Below are positions 2,728 through 46,583 of a stretch of DNA of 64,000 nucleotides, piece after piece (within the stretch, counting starts at the first letter, position 1; every line of letters starts with the position of its first letter). Location of the stretch: contig CAKKNE010000005.1 of NCBI GenBank assembly GCA_918797485.1, forward strand, positions 5,022,001 to 5,086,000, given 5' to 3'. Source of the DNA: Pelagomonas calceolata (Eukaryota). Both the position numbers and the translations under genes were made by a program. The notes beneath the pieces were generated by a model. That model ran no database searches and was not told the DNA's origin. It saw only the letters and a program-made list of their open reading frames with translations.

Positions 2728-4090
2728 ATGGGTAAGACCATCCGCGGCGCCCGTAAGGGCAAGAACTCCATCTTCACGGCGCACACGCGCCTGCGCAAGG
2801 GCCCCGTGCGCCTGCGCAAGATCGACTACGCCGAAAAGTGCGCGGGCCGCGTCCCTCTCTCGCGACTCTTCGACCGACCGATTGGCGCAACGGCAGCGCG
2901 TCAGATTCCAGTCCTGAAGGTTACGTGTTCGAATCACGTATCGGTCACAGCAGCACTGAGCCTCGGTGGTCCGGGGGGTGGACTTCAGTTCCACAGCCGT
3001 TTCGCGACGGAGCGGTTCGATTCCGTCTGGGCTGCGACTGCTGGATTGGTGTAGTGGTTATCACGTCTGCTTTACACGCAGTAGGTCACCGGTTCGAGCC
3101 CGGTATCCAGTAGAGAGCGTCGGAGAGAGCGCGCGAGGGCACGCCGGTCACGCGTTTTTTCCCCACTCGCAGGGAGGGCTACGTCAAGGGCGTCGTGAAG
3201 GCCATCGTCCACGAGTCGGGCCGCGGCGCGCCCATCGCGAAGGTCCAGTTCCAGAATGCGTACCGGTATCAGAGGGATACGGAGCTCTTCGTCGCGGCCG
3301 AGGGCATGCACGAGGGCGCGTTCGTGTACTGCGGCGCCAAGGCGCAGCTGGCGGTCGGCAACGTGCTGCCGCTGAAAGCGATCCCCGAGGGCACGGTCGT
3401 GTGCAACGTCGAGGCCAAGCTCGTGCGCGGGCCGCGTCCGCTTCTCTTCAATCCGACCGATTGGCGCAACGGTAGCGCGTCAGATTCCAGTCCTGAAGGT
3501 TACGTGTTCGAATCACGTATCGGTCACAGCAGCACTGAGCCTCGGTGGTCCGGGGGGTGGACTTCAGTTCCACAGCCGTTTCGCGACGGAGCGGTTCGAT
3601 TCCGTCTGGGCTGCGTTATACACACCATCGTCGAGAGGCGACAAGAGAGCTCCTGGTCACCCGCACGTCCACGCAGGGCGACCGCGGCGCGTTCGCGCGG
3701 TGCTCGGGCGACTACGCCGTCGTCGTGACGCACGACGAGGAGAAGGGCACGACGAAGCTGCGCCTGCCGTCGGGCGGCAAGAAGAGCGTCAAGTCCGTGT
3801 GCCGCGCCATGGTCGGCATCGTCGCGGGCGGCGGCCGCACGGACAAGCCCATGCTCAAGGCGGGCCGGGCATACCACAAGTATCGCGTGAAGCGCAACGA
3901 GTGGCCCAAGGTTAGGGGTGTTGCGATGAACCCCGTGGAGCACCCGCACGGCGGCGGCAACCACCAGCACATTGGTCATCCTTCCACTACTCGTAGAGAT
4001 GATGTTGCGGGCAAGAAGGTCGGTCTGATCGCGGCGCGGCGAACGGGCCGGCTCCGCGGCATCAAGAAGACGGCGGTGGACAAGGACTAG
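2728..4090 (+). CDS. RPL8: 60S ribosomal protein uL2 (L8); exons 2728-2837, 3173-3422, 3677-4090; 257 aa
   Basis: [11 protein letters not shown]..., HESGRGAP and [25 protein letters not shown]. Removing two GT-AG introns restores DYAEK|EGYVKG and EAKL|GDRG. Confidence 0.97.
2876..2947 (+). tRNA. trnW: tRNA-Trp(CCA), copy 1
   Basis: Acceptor stem GACCGAT/ATCGGTC, D arm GCGC-AACGGCA-GCGC, anticodon arm TCAGA-TTCCAGT-CCTGA, T arm ACGTG-TTCGAAT-CACGT; 72 nt. Confidence 0.93.
2950..3036 (+). tRNA. trnU: tRNA-Sec(UCA), copy 1
   Basis: 87 nt with a eukaryote-type 9/4 fold: 6-bp D stem CCTCGG-TGGT-CCGGGG, anticodon arm GTGGA-CTTCAGT-TCCAC, long variable arm CCGTT-TCGC-GACGG, 4-bp T stem GCGG-TTCGATT-CCGT, G discriminator. 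Confidence 0.92.
3040..3112 (+). tRNA. trnV: tRNA-Val(UAC)
   Basis: Acceptor GCTGGAT/ATCCAGT, D arm GGTGTAGTGGTTATCAC, anticodon arm CTGC-TTTACAC-GCAG, T arm ACCGG-TTCGAGC-CCGGT; 73 nt. Confidence 0.93.
3455..3526 (+). tRNA. trnW: tRNA-Trp(CCA), copy 2
   Basis: Identical to copy 1 except one D-loop base (CGGTAGC vs CGGCAGC). Confidence 0.93.
3529..3615 (+). tRNA. trnU: tRNA-Sec(UCA), copy 2
   Basis: Same sequence as 2950-3036. Confidence 0.92.
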
Positions 4091-4197
4091 ACGGCCGCGG
4101 CTAGTTTTTAATTGGGGTTTCTCTTTTACTCTGTAGTAGTACTGGCAGTGTCACACAAGGCGCAAGGGGAGGTGCAGGTGTCTTCACGCGCTTCGCG

Positions 4198-4422
4198 TCA
4201 GTCTGAGGAAAGCAGGGAGTCCCGGCGCGCGAGCCTGCGTCGGTTGCGTCGCGTCGACGGCGTCGCGGCGATGGCGTGCGAATTCCACGCGGGTCTACGA
4301 ACTCCTTGAGCTTCATCATCTGCTCGTCGGCCAACTTATCCATCTCCTCTTGGATCTTCTTCGGGAACGCGTAGGGGCAGGCGCGCGTCGCCTCCATGAC
4401 GCTTACCTTCGTCGCGTGGAAC
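4198..4422 (-). pseudogene. 3' exons of an unidentified minus-strand gene (putative intron 4235-4302); no clear 5' exon
   Basis: Spliced reading gives FHATKVSVMEATRACPYAFPKKIQEEMDKLADEQMMKLKE|LARRDSLLSSD*. An acceptor-like CACGCACAG lies at 4423-4431. Confidence 0.4.
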
Positions 4423-4896
4423 CTGTGCGTGAGTCGAGTGTCGCGGCGATGGCGTGCTGAGGGAATCGACGCGGCGTTTTGGCTGCTTCATCATTACGGG
4501 TGAAGGCGCGCATCGTGCAGACGTCACCAATGGACACGACCAGCGCAGCAACACAGTTGCAGACCGACTATCGATGGGTTTCAACACCTCGTCACGGCCG
4601 CAACGTCTCCCACCAATGCAGGCTGACACTGTTGCTGTTTTGCCAGAGCGATTATTGATGCAATTTGATGGGTTTGACACGGCCTGACGGTCGGTTTCGA
4701 CGATGAGATCAATGATGATGGTGTTGGTCAACGCCCTGACACCTCAGGTTAGCCAGGAACACCCGATCAAAGGCGCTTGCGCAGTTGCGACTCCTGGGAA
4801 AACCCGTGGCGACTCAGGGACGATGTGTCCAGGGGGAGCGGAAGCGCCCAGGAGGGCGCGCGGAGAAGTAAAAAAACACGGATACAGAACGATGAT

Positions 4897-7026
4897 TTAG
4901 GAATACTTCTCCACGTCCAGCCCCACGCCCTCGACGTCGTAGAACGTCTGATCCGAAGGCAGGTAGCCGACCATGGCCCGGTCCAGGCCGGGCAGGACGT
5001 CCGGCGGCACGACCCGGAACCCCATGGCCTCGTACCATTTGACCAATTTCCCGGAGCCGCCGTCGCGCTCGACGAAGAGCATGTACCTGAAATCGAGCGC
5101 GCGGCACGCCCGCATCGCCTCCTTGAAGAGGACCTCGCCGATGTTCCGCCCCCGCGCCGCCGGCTCGACGAAGACGGCGACGCCCGCCGCGACCTTGGCC
5201 GTGCCCCTTCTGGAGTCCCGTTCCACTTTTGTAGAATCGCCGCCGTGGAGAATGGCGGAGAGGGCGTCGTCCGTGCCCGGCGTCGGCTCGTCGGGCAGCC
5301 TCACTAAGTAGTACCCGAGTTCCAGTCCTGTTGATGTGACGGCGGCCGTCCGCAATTCCCCATTCTTGATTGAGGTGGCGACGGTCGCGCGGTCGTTCTG
5401 GGCCGCGCGCGCGAAGGATCGTTGGGTCACGAGGCGCCGACGTCGGCGCCTCTTCCTAAGTTTGGGATAGAGCTGCCGCGGGGCCGCGGAGAGGACCGCC
5501 TCCAACTCGTCGCTCGACGCGGTGGCGACGCCGTCGACGACGTCGAGGCGCGCCGTCTGAATCGCGCTTGCGTCCCGGTAGTCCGCGGGGAGGCGCCGCC
5601 GCCGCGCGAGTGGTCTGCGTGTGAGCTGGTCCGAACTCTACCGGACGGCGAGCGACGAGTCGCGGCGATGGCGTATATGAAGCGGGACGCCGGCCGCGCA
5701 CCGCTTCGGTAAGATGGCGGGGCACCAGGGCCCGCGGACGTCGCCCGAGTCGACGTAGAACTTCGTGCCCGAGCCCCTATCTTTTATGGTACGTACCTGG
5801 CCGTCGAAGTCTCCATAAAAACGCGTCGCCAGGCCGTAGGGCGGCAGGCGTTTTTGTAGAGCGTAGGCCGCGCCGTCTGATGTGGTAGCGATCGTGAGAG
5901 GGCCGTGTTTTGTCGAGACGCATCTTAACGCACCGGGCTCCGGTAGTTGATTGGATTCGCAGACCTCGACGCGCCTTGCGAGCTTCGGCGCCGCCTCCAC
6001 TTCCACTAGATCCGCGTCGTCGCCGAGCCACGGTCTTATGGAGTGGGCGAAGGCGTCTCCCACCTTCGTCGAGTAGCCCCCTTCCAGGCCCAGCACGACG
6101 GGGACGCCTAAAGTTTCAGCGGCATCTTTTGTAGCGCGCCCTATTCGTACATAATCCTGGGGTCGCAGGCGGCACTGCGCCAGCGGGTCCTCGAGCAGCG
6201 CATCGAAGCCCGCGCTCACTACTAGTAACCCATTGCTTCCTGAAACACGATCTGCCACAAACTTCAGACAGCGGTCCCAAGCGCCGCAGAACTCGACGGC
6301 GTCGGCGCCTCTTTTCACACACGCATTCAATCGATTGCCCAGTAAACCTTGGTCGGAAGGGTCATCACCCGTGTTCGGCCAGAGCGGCGCCTGGTGCGCC
6401 GACGCGTACATTACTCGAGCTTCCTCGTCGGCGTACGCGGCGACGCCGTTGCCGTGATGGACATCAAAATCCAGCAAAGCCACCCAGTCCTTGCCGAGGA
6501 CGTCGAGGGCGTAGGCGGCCGCGCCCGCCGCGAAGTTGTACAAGCAGAAGCCGTCGGCCACGTGCCGCGACGCGTGGTGGCCGGGTGGACGCGAGAGCGC
6601 CACCGCCAATTCATTTTGGATAGAAGCGTGGTCCACGGCGTCGAGCCACAGCGATTGGGCCCGCAGCATCGTCTGATGCGATCCCCGTTTCGCGTACGTG
6701 TCGACCGCTAGTCGCGTGCGCCCGAAGCGGTAGAACTTTGACGCTTTTTTCACTCGTGAAATATGCTGGTTTGAGTGTACGCGTCGGACCGACTCTTCAG
6801 CGTCTGTCCTCGCTTGTTTGAGGTACTGCCAGGTCGCGTCGGTCTTTTCGAGCGCTCGCCGGCAGTCGTCGACGCGGCGCGGCGTCTCGGGGTGGCCCTT
6901 GGCGTTGCTGTGCGTCGCGTGTCTGGGGTCGTAGAAGATCTTGACGCCGCTTGGATGCAATGCGTTTACTCCGCCCGAATGCAGGGCGACGCTGTGCACC
7001 AATGCGCAGCGCCAGAGCAGCCTCAT
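4897..7026 (-). CDS. Putative fusion: N-terminal targeting-like peptide + HDAC-family deacetylase + Rieske-like domain + GNAT acetyltransferase (about 680 aa; intron 5615-5701)
   Basis: HDAC motifs RPPGHHA, GFCLYN, DFDVHHGNG, SAGFDA and LEGGY. GNAT motifs VFVEPAARGRNIGEVL and LVKWYEAMGF. The two ORFs share a frame and are joined by an 87-nt GT-AG intron. Confidence 0.75.
5615..5701 (-). other. Spliceosomal intron (87 nt), related in sequence to intron 46363-46424
   Basis: GTGCGCGGCCGGCGTCC...ATACGCCATCGCCGCGACTC...CTCACACGCAG; it contains the only in-frame stop between the two ORFs. Confidence 0.8.
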
Positions 7027-7177
7027 TGCAGCCCGGCGCAGTGCTGCCCAGTGCCACAAAACGAGCGCAGCTCTCCTATAGCTTTGTGCAGCGTGGAAAG
7101 GAGCTGCGTTGCGTGACGTGACTAACGATACCGATGCAGGGCGCAGTGCCAGGGCACTTGCACCGTCTGCACTCGCT

Positions 7178-7203
7178 GCTAGCGTGCTGTAAGACACTAG
7201 CAA
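7178..7203 (-). promoter_or_regulatory. Copy of the recurrent intergenic motif
   Basis: Reverse complement is ttgctagtgtcttacagcacgctagc, about 150 bp upstream of ATG 7026. Confidence 0.6.
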
Positions 7204-7319
7204 ACAATGTAGTTTTGGGCTTGTGGCGCAAACCTGTACCGATCCTGATTGAAAAGGTGCGCACCCCACCGCGCGCTGATCGCTGCAAGAGGGGGTGTAG
7301 GTAAAACTATACTGTGGTC

Positions 7320-7810
7320 TTAGGCATCGCGGCGACTACGTGCAGGCAGTACATCAGTGAAAAGTTTTCCCCTTGCCAGCCCCAGTGTCTGTCGGACTGC
7401 TGGTATCTTCGGGTGCGATGGCCCTAGTACCCTAAGTGCAGTCCGCTCGAGCTTCTCCAGCACCGCCACGGCCAGACGTAGCTCTTCCAGTGAGGGGGCG
7501 GGCTTATAGACGAGCGCCTGGGCGTAAGAATAACGGAGGCCCAGTGTAATATCGTCCTCTTCTCCCAAAAGTTTTCGGCTTTTGGGGAGCATCTCCGTGC
7601 ACAACGCTCTGGCTTCGGAGTAAAGATCAATCCCAGGGGCGATGAGAGCGGAGGCCAATTGCAAGGCCGAATGCAACAAGTCACGCTTAGCCCGATCATC
7701 AGTTTTCTCGATGGTCTTGAGGGTAGCATAGACCTCTCGATGTATCGCGAGAGACTCTTCGTGCCGCCCAAGTTTAGATAAAGCCGCCCGACAGCAGGCA
7801 GCATCCTCAC
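7320..7810 (-). pseudogene. 5'-truncated fragment of a TPR-like (kinesin-light-chain-type repeat) protein
   Basis: LGRHEESLAIHREVY...SRKLLGEEDDITLGLR...RVLGPSHP; no plausible start codon or promoter space. Confidence 0.55.
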
Positions 7811-8194
7811 GACTACGCCGGGAACGCCGGCGACATGGACTACATCTGCGAGTGTTGGTTGGGGCCGGTGCCGCCCACGCCGTCACCGACAACGCCGGAG
7901 CCCACGACGCCCGCCCCTACTAACGATTGCACGGACGGCGTCGAGGGCTACAGCAACGAGTGCTCGGCCGACTGCTCGTCGACGACCCCGGGAACTTGCC
8001 GGTATTACATACGCAACGCCGACTGGGGCGAGGAGCGGACGTGCTCGCACTGGTGCGGGAGCCAAGGCCTCACCTGTCACGCCATGTACGACGACAGCGG
8101 CAACAGTTGCTGCAATTACAAAGGCAACAAACTTAGTTGCGACTACACCGGGGACTCCAGTGACATGGATTTCATCTGCGAGTGTTGGCCATGA
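7811..8194 (+). pseudogene. 5'-truncated fragment of a Cys-rich repeat (probably extracellular) protein
   Basis: Begins mid-repeat with DYAGNAGDMDYICECW, has a PTPSPT linker, and ends DYTGDSSDMDFICECWP*. Confidence 0.5.
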
Positions 8195-41918: not shown

Positions 41919-44900
41919 ATGGCGACGACGCACCCTTCCACCGTGACCGCGGCGGTGCCCGCGGCCGCCGCAGCGCCCGCGACCACGCCCGTGACCGCGG
42001 CGGCGGCACCCTTGACTGCCGCGGCGCCCGTGACCGCGCCCGCTCCCGCGACGACCGCGCCAGTGACCGCCGCCGGCCCGGGCTCGTCGCAGCCGGCGCC
42101 GCCAGAAGCGCCCAAATTCGGCGACCTCTTTAGCGGCTGGCCGCAGAGGACGTCGAGCGCACCTGTCTCCCAGACGAACTTCCACTTTCCGCGGCGGACG
42201 GCGAGCGAAGGCTCCGCGGCGCAAACGACCGCTTTCCGCGCCGCCGCTGCGCGGCTGAGCGCAGCCGCGTCAGCTCCCACGTTCAACACGAACGGTGGTC
42301 TATTTACGTCTTCGGCCGCGCCGCAGCCGCCGAGCGGTGGTCTATTTACGTCTTCGGCCGCGCCGCAGCCGCCGAGCGGTTTAATTCCGCCTCCGCCCGC
42401 GCACTCGGCCACAAATTTGGCGAGTCCAAGGGCCGGCCGCCGCATCGTGTCCGTCGGCCGTCGCTTTACCGCTCGGGCCGCCTCGACACCCGCGCCGGCC
42501 GCAAAACCGACGACGAAGCCGCATCAGGCGAACGTCGAGGCCGCCAGGGCCGCTTTGGGCCTGTCGGGTGCGCCGCCGGCGCCCGCCGGGTTATTCAGTG
42601 CGACGCCAGCCTTTGGGGCGAAACCCGCGATCGGCGCGGCGGCGGCGCCCGTCCTCTTCGGCCAGCAGCCGCAGCAGCCCATCTTCCCGGCGGGTCCACC
42701 GGCCTGTACGACGCTCTCGACGGGCTGGCTCGGGGACTTTTCGCGGTTCCTCAAGTGGGAGGCCGTCGACTCGACGCGCGCGGTGGACGCGAAGCTCTGG
42801 GTGCGGGGGTCGAATTCCTTCGCCGCGGACCGGTGCTGCTTGTCGGACGGCTTGACGGAGATGGAGTTCGACATCTCGAGCCTCGGGCCCTTGGAGCGCG
42901 CCAACCTCGCGCCGGGCAACGTCGTCTGCGTGAAGAGGGTCAAGATAAAGTCGGCGACCGAGACGCCGCGCATGGCCATCGAGCGGACGGAGCTCGTCCA
43001 GGGCCAGCCCCGCCGGCCCGACGCGAACGCGAAGGCCGACGCGACACCCGCCGCCGGGAGCGTGCACCTGCTCACGGGGGCGTCGAGCGCCGGCACCGTC
43101 GTCGTGGTCCGCGTGGCCGAGGTCCTCCGCGAGCCGAATACCGTGGACCGCTGGCGCGTGGAGATTGACGACGGGGACGCGACGCTGTCGTGTTTGTTGG
43201 CGGCTGGCGTCCACGCCAACGTCGCGCCGCGGTCGCTGGTCTCGGTGAAGTCGGCGGGCCGCGCCGACTTCGACGGTGCGAGCACGGTCGTCCTGCAGTC
43301 GATCACAGTCGTTGCCCCGCCGCCGCCGCAAGACAAAGCCGCGCCCGTGACGACGCCGACGAAGAAGAAGCCGCTCGACGAGGTCTCGACGAACGTAACT
43401 CCAGAAAAGGCGATCGTGCAGGCCAATCTCCTCTCGCCCGACCACGGGCGGCAGACGTTCTTCGTGAGCCCTACGGGCGTCGAGAACTTTCCGTCGTTCG
43501 CCGTTGAACCGCGCGGCGGCCGCGACTGGCGGTCGCGCTGGCGGGATGAGATCGACGGCGACGCGATTGTGTTCGCGGGCGCGCGAGCCGTCGCGGGCGA
43601 CGCGTTCGAGAAACGAGCTCGGCTGCTGCGCGAAGCGTGCAGCCGGCAGCAAATCATCGTCTCCGGCGGCGACTGGAGGGCGCGGAAAGACGTCGACTCG
43701 CTTTTCCTCGAGAAGATGCTGCGCGCTTAAGCCGGCCGCAGCTCGTCGTGGCGCCGCCTCACGGAGGAGAACTTCCCGGCCCTCACGACTGCGGTGGCCC
43801 AGGCCAGGACGGCCGTCACGCGCATTACTGGTCTCCAGAAACAGCTCGAGGGCTCGCGACGAATGCGCGCCCTGATCAAGCGACCCATCGACGAGGGCCT
43901 GCTTGGCTCGTGCCTGTTCGAGCGAGGCGTCGCGCGTTTGGAGGCGGAGGTAGCGGCCGGGTCGGCTCTTCTCGACGCCGCCTACGAACATCTCGCCGCC
44001 ATCGAAACGGTAGGCGCGCGACGCTACGCGCTCGGAGCAATCTGCGAGGTCCTTGGAAAGCCCAAGCCGCGGGTTGATTGGCGCGCCTGCTGGGACACCA
44101 CGGACGATCTAAGCAGCCTATTCCGGGAGGAGGAATCCTTCGACTCCGCGTGGCGAGCCGCCGCGGGCGAACTCGAAGGTCGCGTGGCCATGGCGGTCGT
44201 CGTCGACGAGGAGGCCGATCCCGATCACTGGTCGCCGGGTGTGCGCGCCATCTCACACCTCGATGACCGCTACCTCAACGAGGGGTTGGACTCTGTGTGG
44301 AAATCAACCAGTGTGTCGGGTGCACCCGACAATTCTTCACTAAGTCATTTCTCGGCGATGACGCGGCCGACCTGGCTCGGTCGAGCTGCGAGGAACCGGC
44401 ATCGCCACGCCATCGAGCAGGCGTCGCGTCGATGGCGTGGAGGACGACGCGACGATTCAGCACGAACGCGCCGTAAAATTTTGATTTCCACACAGGTTGG
44501 ACTTCGACGAAGACGACGACCTCTGGATTGAAGGAGACCGGCTCTCGTCCTACGCGGCCGCGGCGGCCGTCGAAGCGGCTTCGGGGACGCTCGCTGCCGA
44601 TCTGCGTGACGCGCCGGCCCTCGCCGTGGCCCGGAAAGCAAGCGAGTCGCTCGCGCGGCGCCGCCGCGCCCGCGAGGATGCCTGGGCCGGTCGGTCGACC
44701 GTGATAGCTCGGAAGTGGCCTTGGCGTGTCGGAGACGAGGCGGTGTGGGTCTCCCCGGGTGAGCCCGACCGGCGCTGCGTCATACTGGCGCGTAGCCCGA
44801 GCCGGACCACGACCACCCCTCGCTGGAAAATCCTAGCCGACAATATCGGCGAGACCCAGGTATTTTCGACGTCTCTCCGCATGGACCTTGCGGTCTTAAA

Positions 44901-46583
44901 CGAGGGCAAGGACCTGGACGCGCGCGAGAAGGCGCTGGCCACCGCAGAGCGAACGATCGCCGCGCGGTCGCGCGCCGAGCAACGCCAGGCCCTGCGCGAC
45001 GCGCGCACGACGCTCGGCTCAGACGTGACGTCGCCGGTCGACTGGCGCGCCGCAGTCTTCGACGACAAGGAGATCTGGCTCGCCAGCGAGGCCGACTTCC
45101 TCCGCGGCGTCGACTGCAAGCTGCTGAAGCTCACGCTAGAGACGGTCGCTACCACGGCCAAGTGCTCCTACGCCGAAGCGTTCGACGCGTGCCGGCGGGC
45201 GCCCCAGGACACGCTCGCTACGCTGAGCGCGTGCCTCACGGACGACGTCCGGGCGATGGCTCGAATCGTCGACCGCGCCGTGGATCGGCTCCGGGCGTCT
45301 TCGGCTACTCTGGCCGCCGCGGCCTCGGCGGCCGAGCGAGAGGTCGCCGACCGCCGCGCGCGCTTCCAGGACGTCATCGATGCCGCTTCGACCGTCGCGC
45401 CCTCGCGCACCGTGGTGATGCCAGCGGTGCTCTCGCGCGACGCGTTGAACACCTTATTAGATCAAAAGGCCTTCGAGGAGCTCTCGCGCGAAGACGATCT
45501 GGAGATCATCGCGGGCCTCGTCAAGCGCATCAAGGACGTCTTCGCCGCGGCCGGCGCGGCCCCGTCTCGGGCGCGGATCGGATACGCCGTCGGGGACGAA
45601 GATTTGACGCGGCCGGCGACGCTAGAGCGCTATGTGGACCAATTAGCCCTCGCCGACGGCGCGGCGCCCCAGGGCGACGACCTGCCCTTTCAGCCGGCGG
45701 CGGACTTGTCTCGCGTCTTTGCGAGCAGCAACCAATGGCTCAACCGGGCGCGCCGGCGGTACCGCTATTGGGCCGATCGGTGGAAGGAGCTCAAGACGTG
45801 CCCAATCTGCTGGGACGCCCTGCCGAAGGCCGAGATGATGGGCGCGCACTTAGGAACCAAGCTCTGCGCCCATTTCGACGAAGTCTGCGTGTCCTGCGCC
45901 CGAGAGCATTGCAAAAATCATTTAGCTGATTCGTCTGGTATCACGGAGAAAGGGCTCCCTTGCGTGGAATGGGGCTGCTCCACGCCGCTCACGCTGGACG
46001 CGCTGGCCGCGACGTTTACCGTTATGCGCGGCCACGGCGACGGGGATGCCTACCCGACCCCGGACCAGTTGTTACGGCCTGCAGATGTGGCCAAAGCCAA
46101 ACGCTTCGTCCGCGCCGCGAAGATTAGTGTTTTTGGTCCGGGAGCGGCTTGCTGGTGCCCGAACGGGTGCGAGGATTCGATCGTCGATCTCACGAGCCCG
46201 ACGCCCCAGTGCAAGGTCTGCGCGACGGTCGTTTGCAAGTCGTGTCAACAGGTCGGGCACGACGGGCCCTGCGCCGCCGCCGCGAGCGCGCTCGACGAAA
46301 CGTTATGGCGCGGTAACTGGCAGCGCTGTCCCGGCTGTAAGACGGTTGTTGAGAAGAAGGAGGTCCGCGGCCGGCGTCCTTCGAGAATACGCCATCGACG
46401 CGACTCATAATCACTCACTCATAGGCGTGCGACCACATGCGGTGCCGGTGCGGAACGCTCTTCTGTTACAATTGCGGCGCGCGCGGCCATGGCTGCCCGA
46501 CGAAGTGCACGCGGCCGCGCGTCTTCGACCCGGCCGAGGACAAGCGACCGGTCAACCGCACCAACCGCGCCGCCGACTACTAG
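41919..46583 (+). CDS. Multidomain RBR (RING-IBR-RING) E3 ligase-like gene; in-frame TAA at 43728-43730; introns 44285-44495 and 46363-46424
   Basis: CPICWD...CVSC (RING1), WCPNGC...CKVC...CKSC (IBR), RCPGCKTVVEKKE|ACDHMRCRCGTLFCYNC (RING2). The upstream ORF 41919..43730 is in the same frame. Confidence 0.65.
42293..42376 (+). repeat. Exact 42-bp tandem duplication (GGLFTSSAAPQPPS x2)
   Basis: cggtggtctatttacgtcttcggccgcgccgcagccgccgag x2. Confidence 0.9.
44293..44495 (+). mobile_element. Introner-type TIR element, 203 bp, with perfect TSD GTTGGACT
   Basis: TIR CTGTGTGGAAATCAA...TTGATTTCCACACAG; TSD at 44285-44292 and 44496-44503; splicing gives NEG|LDFDED. Confidence 0.95.
46363..46424 (+). 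other. Spliceosomal intron (62 nt) related to intron 5615-5701
   Basis: GTCCGCGGCCGGCGTCC...ATACGCCATCGACGCGACTC...CTCATAG; splicing completes RING2. Confidence 0.85.

What the first reader, a model, noticed from the sequence alone, without database searches (positions are those of the whole stretch)
4897..7026. Deacetylase and acetyltransferase in one polypeptide, bridged by a Rieske-like domain
Seen: the HDAC ORF and the GNAT ORF share a frame and are separated only by a TAG inside an 87-nt GT-AG intron (5615-5701) that resembles another intron in the window. The GNAT part has no ATG before its domain and no promoter space. HDAC catalytic motifs are intact. The middle region (AYALQKRLPP...IKDRGSGTKFYVDSGDVRGPWCP) looks like a Rieske fold without Cys/His ligands, as in plastid PSB33/TEF5-type proteins. 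The N-terminus looks like a targeting peptide. Known: plant plastids have separate HDA14 and GNAT enzymes. Inference: a bifunctional writer-eraser of organellar lysine or small-molecule acetylation, perhaps switched or docked by the Rieske-like domain. Intron retention would give a deacetylase-only isoform.
Basis: partly seen in the sequence, partly recalled or inferred. Interest (0 to 1): 0.78.

Follow-up and report, generated by a model that had tools for sequence, protein, structure and literature searches.

The report
Algal acetylation writer-eraser fusion protein
A spliced gene shared across pelagophyte algae encodes one protein that joins an intact-looking zinc deacetylase, an iron-free Rieske-type domain and an acetyltransferase domain, and it likely both adds and removes acetyl marks on chloroplast proteins, although neither activity nor the location has been tested.

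Summary
RNA confirms the 87-nt intron (5615-5701): raw junction reads, and two single contigs from two studies that span both domains. The spliced 680-aa product is identical to an unnamed Pelagomonas calceolata protein. The same three-domain protein occurs in Aureococcus, Chrysophaeum, Chrysoreinhardia and other pelagophytes, and one close relative has no intron at this site. All six deacetylase catalytic residues are invariant in 9 of 9 fusions. The GNAT is as conserved as the deacetylase but has a variant motif A. The middle domain is Rieske-derived and lacks all four iron ligands.

Two corrections. The Rieske-like domain is not a bridge made for this fusion: Rieske-like+GNAT proteins without the deacetylase exist in other algae, some with classic plastid-targeting motifs, so the deacetylase was probably added in front. 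Retained-intron RNA exists, but the intron belongs to a repeat family, is not conserved in position, and retention would truncate the Rieske fold, so a designed switch is unlikely.

Best reading: a plastid lysine-acetylation writer-eraser aimed by a non-redox docking domain (0.45). Seven paper searches found no description. New variant of a known kind; interest 0.62.

The parts
4879..7167 (-). Transcript of the fusion gene (extent of spliced RNA contigs; true ends not shown)
   Evidence: Contigs X6 4879-7153 and X9 4899-7167, each one record across the splice joint
5702..7026 (-). Coding exon 1 (ATG at 7026; residues 1-442)
   Evidence: no upstream in-frame Met in ORF 5638-7335
5615..5701 (-). 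87-nt phase-2 GT-AG intron with in-frame TAG (5640-5638); member of a repeat-bearing intron family
   Evidence: absent in L001 and 61 nt in L003
4897..5614 (-). Coding exon 2 (residues 443-680, TAA at 4899-4897)
6961..7026 (-). Signal-peptide-like N-terminus, predicted cleavage after Ala14 or Ala22 with Leu at +1 (inferred plastid targeting)
   Evidence: hydropathy and motif scan only; +1 rule from PMC4329603
6025..6948 (-). Zn-dependent deacetylase domain (residues 27-334); H150, H151, D188, H190, D275, Y318
   Evidence: Pfam PF00850; Foldseek 5ZMP TM 0.89 by target; residues invariant in 9 of 9
5512..5973 (-). Cluster-less Rieske-like domain (residues 352-476), split by the intron; last two strands lie in exon 2
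   Evidence: hhalign 99.2% to stand-alone family, which hits 8JNG and Rieske ferredoxins; strands from model; ligand boxes
5395..5511 (-). Poorly conserved basic helical linker (residues 477-515)
   Evidence: mean identity 0.23; Lys/Arg run of 8
4945..5394 (-). GNAT acetyltransferase domain (residues 516-665); variant motif A R596-x-x-N599-x-G601, Y636
   Evidence: Pfam PF00583; VIA-align Z 11.5, rmsd 2.7, 113 aligned to Elp3, tied with other GNATs; conservation

Best explanation
One spliced mRNA encodes a 680-residue protein with a zinc deacetylase domain, an iron-free Rieske-type domain and a GNAT domain, conserved across pelagophytes; it is likely imported into the plastid, where it would both add and remove acetyl groups on protein lysines, with the Rieske-like domain predicted to dock it on thylakoid or photosystem targets. 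Shown: the transcript, the ORF, the domain order, the intact deacetylase site, loss of the Rieske ligands, and conservation. Inferred: plastid import through a bipartite leader; acetyl-CoA use by the GNAT; protein-lysine substrates; a docking role for the Rieske-like domain; and an origin by one fusion of a deacetylase onto an older plastid Rieske-like+GNAT protein in the pelagophyte ancestor. On this model both enzymes share one address, so the acetylation level of the target would follow the stromal acetyl-CoA/CoA ratio rather than enzyme amounts. Intron retention is probably incomplete splicing, not a switch.
For: Spanning spliced RNA. Identity to CAH0378246.1, 680 of 680. 25 of 235 stored proteins carry all three domains (many are cluster-mates); the named ones are all Pelagophyceae. 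L001 genomic DNA reads through the junction without an intron. Catalytic residues invariant in 9 of 9. Mean pairwise identity among 6 distant members: GNAT 0.61, deacetylase 0.55, Rieske core 0.47, linker 0.23. Deacetylase-free Rieske-like+GNAT proteins align end to end with the C-terminal half (hhalign 100%, 324 columns); P0072 and P0075 carry Ala|Phe ASAFAP-type sites. In both domain trees the three-domain proteins form one side of a starred branch (100/99 and 100/96). Precedent from paper passages: plastids hold separate GNATs and HDA14, and HDA14 was about two-fold enriched in a GNAT pulldown (PMC11585782); the cluster-less Rieske-like domain of TEF5/PSB33 faces the stroma and the proteins interact with photosystems (PMC12164590). 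Leu282 is invariant where HDAC6 CD2 has Leu; that polyamine deacetylases have Glu there is recalled.
Against: No activity, localisation, proteomic or substrate data. No targeting predictor was run. A hydrophobic N-terminus with an Ala|F/L/W/Y site was found in only 5 of the 9 fusions used for the residue check; +1 is Leu rather than the usual Phe, and only about 4-6 residues separate that site from the first deacetylase strand. Motif A has Asn/Lys where the consensus has Gly (consensus from PMC5112689), and Pfam GNAT scores are near or below cut-off. The models give no sign of a fixed domain arrangement (pTM 0.60 and 0.51), and the Rieske part was not confirmed by a fold search (searches list only GNATs). 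Trees are midpoint-rooted, and the sister branch of the fusion GNAT is not starred (93/90), so the direction of fusion is inference. Opposing activities in one chain risk a futile cycle, and no control element was identified.
Confidence: 0.45

Rival explanations
1. Regulated eraser: the GNAT domain does not transfer acetyl groups but binds acetyl-CoA or CoA and, with the Rieske-like domain, controls the deacetylase, much as AcuB controls AcuC or (recalled) the pseudo-acetyltransferase domain sits on O-GlcNAcase.
For: Variant motif A and weak Pfam scores; avoids a futile cycle; AcuB precedent (PMC13039410 abstract).
Against: The GNAT is the best-conserved domain (0.61) and keeps the C-terminal Tyr-x-x-x-Gly-Phe motif in all 7 complete members. 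The same GNAT family exists without any deacetylase, and motif A position 4 varies across that whole family.
Confidence: 0.15
2. Small-molecule or editing enzyme: the two domains act in series on a metabolite, lipid or wrongly acylated group (remove one acyl group, add another) rather than as a reversible protein switch.
For: The closest solved deacetylase structures are bacterial deacylases and amidohydrolases (5ZMP, 5JI5, APAH). The same Rieske-like+GNAT unit sits in front of AprA-type methyltransferase and carrier-protein domains in two long proteins, one of them from a dinoflagellate (P0083, P0087).
Against: Leu rather than an acidic residue at the recalled polyamine gatekeeper position. 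No metabolic gene cluster: neighbours are RPL8, a TPR protein, an M16 peptidase and TRAPP. The two long fusions may be gene-model artefacts.
Confidence: 0.15
3. Uncoupled passenger fusion: two plastid proteins became joined and now share one promoter and one import signal, but act on different substrates or are cleaved apart.
For: Both linkers are poorly conserved or low-confidence; the Rieske-like+GNAT unit works without a deacetylase elsewhere; domain fusions are common in ochrophyte plastid proteomes (PMC5462543 passages).
Against: The fusion is kept in both pelagophyte orders named by NCBI, and no real split form was found: of the 10 deacetylase+Rieske rows, 6 are unspliced calls, 2 are fragments and 2 have full-length cluster-mates. 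A chance pairing of exactly opposing activities is unlikely.
Confidence: 0.15
4. Non-plastid location: the leader sends the protein to the ER, periplastid space or secretory route, or the basic linker takes a form of it to the nucleus.
For: Very short transit region, Leu at +1, and a Lys/Arg run of 8 in the linker.
Against: Deacetylase-free relatives have Phe-type plastid motifs, and the Rieske-like family is plastid-type. The long basic run is limited to some members (3-8 residues across 9).
Confidence: 0.1

Closest known systems
Plant plastid acetylation system: GNAT1-type acetyltransferases and deacetylase HDA14
   Same: Same two enzyme folds and, by inference, the same compartment; plant GNATs act on photosynthetic proteins, and HDA14 was weakly co-enriched in a GNAT pulldown (PMC11585782 passages).
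   Different: Separate genes in plants, with no Rieske-like domain reported. Orthology to HDA14 or to any plant GNAT was not tested.
Bacillus acu operon (AcuA acetyltransferase, AcuB sensor-adaptor, AcuC deacetylase)
   Same: Writer, non-catalytic middle component and Zn-dependent eraser are co-encoded (PMC13039410 abstract; PMC13121692 listing).
   Different: Three polypeptides; AcuB is a CBS/ACT nucleotide sensor, not a Rieske fold; bacterial cytosol.
PSB33/LIL8/TEF5 and soluble PSB33-like Rieske proteins (8JNG type)
   Same: Rieske fold; PSB33/TEF5 lack the cluster ligands (PMC8003979, PMC12164590 passages). The family linked to this domain matches 8JNG at E 1.8e-28.
   Different: PSB33/TEF5 are green-lineage, membrane-anchored and stand alone, and keep one Cys. 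This domain keeps none of the four ligands, has no transmembrane helix and is fused to enzymes.
Deacetylase-free algal Rieske-like+GNAT proteins (P0072, P0075, P0078 from Amphidinium, P0090; uncharacterised)
   Same: Colinear with the C-terminal half, including the GNAT C-terminal motif.
   Different: No deacetylase: the leader runs straight into the Rieske-like domain. I found no description of them.
Class II-like / bacterial classical deacylases (5ZMP, 5JI5, HDAC6 catalytic domains)
   Same: Fold (TM 0.89 and 0.87 by target) and all catalytic residues.
   Different: About 30% identity. A survey of photosynthetic eukaryotes describes HDA enzymes as largely bare catalytic subunits and held the Aureococcus orthologue only as a 209-aa fragment (PMC5499015).
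O-GlcNAcase with a C-terminal pseudo-acetyltransferase domain; bacterial GNAT-deacetylase database fusions (both recalled, from no call)
   Same: An eraser joined to a GNAT fold.
   Different: O-GlcNAcase is a glycosidase. Bacterial fusions were not tested here; none of the 4 bacterial loci fetched showed a convincing GNAT by my profile (best E 0.015, 6 bits).

Membership tests
Zn-dependent classical deacylase (HDAC/AcuC/APAH, PF00850) | Profile match above the curated cut-off | tested here: met
   184.7 bits against 27.9
Zn-dependent classical deacylase (HDAC/AcuC/APAH, PF00850) | His-His pair, Asp-x-His and Asp zinc ligands, catalytic Tyr | tested here: met
   H150, H151, D188, H190, D275, Y318 invariant in 9 of 9 fusions, aligned to HDAC6
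Zn-dependent classical deacylase (HDAC/AcuC/APAH, PF00850) | Deacylase activity | not testable with these tools
   needs an assay
HDA14 (plastid class II deacetylase) orthologue | Groups with HDA14 in a tree | not tested
   No deacetylase-domain tree was built and no HDA14 sequence was held
GNAT acetyltransferase (PF00583) | Profile match and GNAT fold | tested here: met
   24 bits against 20.7; Z 11.5, rmsd 2.7, 113 aligned, with many tied GNATs; Atlas features 0.93
GNAT acetyltransferase (PF00583) | Motif A Q/R-x-x-G-x-G/A for acetyl-CoA binding | tested here: inconclusive
   Arg and the last Gly are invariant in 9 of 9, but position 4 is Asn or Lys and varies across the wider family
GNAT acetyltransferase (PF00583) | Acetyl transfer activity | not testable with these tools
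   needs an assay
Rieske [2Fe-2S] protein | Homology to the Rieske fold | tested here: met
   Two-step link: hhalign 99.2%, E 3.4e-19, then E 1.8e-28 to 8JNG and 1.9e-5 to 1FQT. Direct evidence is weak: E 0.091 to 8JNG, 0 of 6 Pfam hits, Atlas 0.86-0.87, a lead only
Rieske [2Fe-2S] protein | C-x-H and C-x-x-H cluster ligands | tested here: not met
   Leu-Pro-Pro and Asp-Arg-Gly-Ser at the aligned boxes; no ligand at those four positions in 9 of 9 fusions. It is Rieske-like, not an iron-sulfur protein
PSB33/LIL8/TEF5 | C-terminal transmembrane helix or helices | tested here: not met
   Best 19-residue hydropathy 1.27, inside the deacetylase core
PSB33/LIL8/TEF5 | Orthology to the green-lineage proteins | not tested
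   No PSB33/TEF5 sequence was held
Bipartite plastid-targeted ochrophyte protein | Signal peptide followed by F/W/Y/L at +1 and a transit peptide | tested here: inconclusive
   Hydrophobic stretch and Ala|Leu sites in the window's protein; such a site in 5 of 9 fusions; transit region very short; heuristic only
Conserved regulated intron retention | Intron position and premature stop conserved across relatives | tested here: not met
   Absent in L001, 61 nt and frameshifting in L003, frameshifted in P0046

The most novel reading that the evidence does not exclude
Pelagophytes built a single-chain writer-eraser of plastid protein acetylation by adding a deacetylase to an undescribed, older algal Rieske-like+GNAT enzyme. 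The iron-free Rieske fold aims both opposing active sites at the same photosystem or thylakoid targets, making a self-contained acetyl-CoA-sensing switch for photosynthesis in a major open-ocean algal class.
Probability: 0.3. Interest if true: 0.82.

Novelty: new variant of a known kind. Interest (0 to 1): 0.62.

Why it matters
Writers and erasers of lysine acetylation are normally separate proteins, and a survey of photosynthetic eukaryotes describes this deacetylase family as largely bare catalytic subunits (PMC5499015). A conserved natural fusion of the two would pair a specific eraser with a specific writer and point to shared substrates. It also gives a handle on protein acetylation in red-lineage plastids, which I recall being little studied, through one gene in a cultured, sequenced alga. 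It exposes a second family I found no description of, the deacetylase-free Rieske-like+GNAT proteins, and offers a test of what cluster-less Rieske folds do in plastids. If the domains are uncoupled, it is a lineage marker of modest interest.

Tried and rejected
No whole genome is held for this window, so paralogues and a separate Rieske-like+GNAT gene in this organism were not checked. NCBIfam: 0 families for 6 of 6 proteins. Fold searches did not test the Rieske part: the deacetylase filled the list for the full model and GNATs filled it for the C-terminal model, whose Rieske half had low confidence; this absence says nothing about the fold. The prokaryote genome scan gave 4 weak deacetylase loci of 66 candidates (26-36% identity), with no convincing GNAT or Rieske match by my profiles; the origin of the deacetylase domain stays open, and no deacetylase-only alignment or tree was made. 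The intron RNA folds no better than shuffles (z 0.0). A separate GNAT transcript: no pile-up of read starts in the gene and no usable ATG; higher depth over the GNAT part in X21 was set aside as possible poly(A) bias at low coverage. A gene-model artefact was rejected. P0007 and P0069 (GNAT tail joined to unrelated N-termini) and P0010 were set aside as probable misassemblies. P0044 and P0008 lack the Rieske core, probably through gene-model errors, since P0003-type proteins have it. Rows left out of trees: near-identical cluster-mates and fragments; the GNAT tree used the 34 best-scoring GNAT-only rows of 150 aa or more, after also dropping P0069, P0071 and P0076. No complex prediction was run. 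Earlier findings of this scan: none by sequence or by words. Paper searches that found no description of this architecture; the library lacks most subscription journals, and bioRxiv supplements were closed. 8JNG could not be traced to its paper.

Full report
Observation. The minus-strand frame from ATG 7026 to TAA 4897 has one internal stop, at codon 463, inside an 87-nt GT-AG segment (5701-5615). Removing it gives 680 residues. Pfam finds a deacetylase domain upstream (184.7 bits) and a weak GNAT downstream (24 bits, cut-off 20.7). The GNAT-side ORF has no Met until after motif A.

RNA. Of 4 raw-read runs from one sample, X22 shows the exact joint in 3 reads from 3 starts; the other three list none at this low depth. 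Of 4 contig runs from 4 studies, X5, X6 and X9 carry the joint, and X6 and X9 are single contigs of 2188 and 2182 nt across both domains. X5 also has a 146-nt contig through the unspliced intron (depth 6.1 against 9.1 for the spliced branch), with no cover in the bins from 4521 to 4948, so it is probably RNA. Contig depth is not a splicing ratio.

Identity and range. The spliced product equals CAH0378246.1 of Pelagomonas calceolata at 680 of 680 residues; the record is named 'unnamed protein product', and UniRef notes only the deacetylase domain. One JGI/IMG record of a close relative has an automatic name listing both enzyme domains (P0047), so pipelines have tagged the pair. Three-domain relatives come from Aureococcus-type records, Chrysophaeum, Chrysoreinhardia and a cluster-mate of Pelagophyceae sp. 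CCMP2097, plus unnamed records. Of 235 proteins held, 25 had all three domains, 22 Rieske-like+GNAT, 10 deacetylase+Rieske-like, 1 deacetylase+GNAT, 135 GNAT only, 30 Rieske-like only, 11 deacetylase only and 1 none; many are cluster-mates or fragments. The searches that found them used the Rieske-like and GNAT parts, so stand-alone orthologues of the deacetylase were not sought.

The intron. L001, a genomic contig with the same neighbours (M16 peptidase, RPL8), reads straight through this site and instead has another apparent intron inside the deacetylase motif. L002 and L003 have a shorter intron at the same site (61 nt in L003), whose retention shifts the frame with no stop in 300 codons. 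The window's intron shares a 16-mer with 11 other places (0.1 expected), and a near-copy lies at 46363. The genome paper reports introner-like intron lengths for this species (PMC9481584 passages). Retention would end the protein before the last two predicted Rieske strands (residues 462-475). So a designed isoform is unlikely. One fact points the other way and is unexplained: of 8 stored unspliced gene calls, 5 have an intron-encoded 20-residue tail identical to the window's and a sixth differs by one residue, while the preceding exon residues are only 78-83 of 90 identical. A seventh keeps a similar sequence but shifts frame, which points to constraint on the RNA, or recent spread, rather than on the peptide; the eighth has an unrelated tail.

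Deacetylase domain. All six catalytic and zinc-binding residues are invariant in 9 of 9 fusions. The closest solved single domains are bacterial deacylases 5ZMP and 5JI5. The invariant Leu282 matches HDAC6 CD2; that polyamine deacetylases have Glu there is recalled.

Middle domain. Direct evidence for a Rieske fold is weak (E 0.091 to 8JNG; 0 of 6 Pfam hits). The two-step link is strong: the pelagophyte profile matches a family of stand-alone proteins at 99.2%, and that family matches 8JNG at E 1.8e-28 and classical Rieske ferredoxins at 1.9e-5; several members pass the Pfam Rieske_2 cut-off. None of the four ligand positions holds its Cys or His in any of the 9 fusions. There is no transmembrane helix, unlike PSB33/TEF5 (PMC8003979 and PMC12164590 passages).

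GNAT domain. The fold is confirmed (Z 11.5, rmsd 2.7, 113 aligned to Elp3, tied with N-terminal and other acetyltransferases), which gives no substrate. It is the best-conserved part (0.61 against 0.55 and 0.47). Motif A has Asn or Lys at the usual Gly, a position that varies through the wider family, so catalytic competence is likely but not shown.

An older module. The profile search of 1.84 billion representatives gave 201 hits at E<=0.001, of which 150 were listed. Among them are Rieske-like+GNAT proteins with no deacetylase: P0072, P0075, P0090 (unnamed), P0078 (Amphidinium), and P0083 (Breviolum) and P0087, where the unit precedes polyketide-loading-type domains. They align over the whole C-terminal half, and their leaders run directly into the Rieske-like domain; P0072 and P0075 show Ala|Phe plastid-type sites (rule from PMC4329603 passages). 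In both domain trees the three-domain proteins are one side of a starred branch, while deacetylase-free forms fall on several branches. One gain of the deacetylase in the pelagophyte ancestor is the simplest reading, but the trees are midpoint-rooted and no clade test was run.

Mechanism. I infer plastid import, acetylation of protein lysines by the GNAT, removal by the deacetylase, and shared targeting by the iron-free Rieske fold (0.45). Rivals: a CoA-sensing pseudo-enzyme that controls the deacetylase (0.15), a small-molecule or editing enzyme (0.15), an uncoupled fusion (0.15), and a non-plastid location (0.10). That the gene and architecture are real is near certain.

Known systems and novelty. 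Closest in function are the separate plant plastid GNATs and HDA14 (PMC11585782 passages) and the Bacillus AcuA/AcuB/AcuC operon (PMC13039410 abstract and outline). A survey of 'HDA' enzymes in photosynthetic eukaryotes calls them largely bare catalytic subunits and held the Aureococcus orthologue only as a 209-aa fragment (PMC5499015 passages and supplement rows). Passages of PMC3145265, PMC5462543, PMC11532494, PMC10227436 and PMC5112689 showed no such fusion; I did not read these papers whole. Seven searches found no description. I recall GNAT-deacetylase fusions in bacterial databases but did not test this. Verdict: real, conserved, apparently undescribed; a new variant of a known kind; interest 0.62.

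Noticed in passing
window 2838-3172 and 3423-3676 (+): The two apparent introns of the RPL8 gene hold tRNA clusters on the same strand: Trp, SeC and Val in the first, Trp and SeC in the second (ARAGORN; boundaries read, not tested by RNA). The two introns are near-copies and start like the intron of this finding.
   Followed up: partly
P0072, P0075, P0078, P0090, P0238 (not in the window): A family of algal proteins with a leader, a cluster-less Rieske-like domain and a GNAT, without deacetylase; I found no description of it.
   Followed up: partly
P0083 (Breviolum minutum) and P0087: The Rieske-like+GNAT unit sits in front of AprA-type methyltransferase domains, with carrier-protein domains in P0087; a real fusion or a gene-model join.
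   Followed up: no
window 5615-5701 against P0015, P0016, P0024, P0026, P0046, P0052, P0070: The intron sequence appears far better conserved than the flanking exons among Pelagomonas-like lineages, yet it is absent in L001; unexplained.
   Followed up: partly
L001 about 3463-3521: An apparent GC-AG intron interrupts the deacetylase zinc motif in this relative and is absent from the window; intron positions in this gene are labile.
   Followed up: partly
window 1225, 2186, 4277, 4455, 32647, 33216, 44438, 46389, 47024, 50927, 63365: A 16-base element recurs 12 times counting the intron copy (0.1 expected), in intron-like stretches and in longer repeats at 44438, 47024 and 50927.
   Followed up: partly
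window 4101-4487 (-): A small spliced gene (joint 4421/4483 in X6) with no Pfam match, conserved in place in L001-L003.
   Followed up: no
window 7320-7916 (-) and 7778-8194 (+): A TPR-like ORF ends about 150 bases before the fusion transcript and has deeper read cover at its 3' end. A Cys-rich ORF with no Pfam match overlaps its 5' part on the other strand.
   Followed up: no
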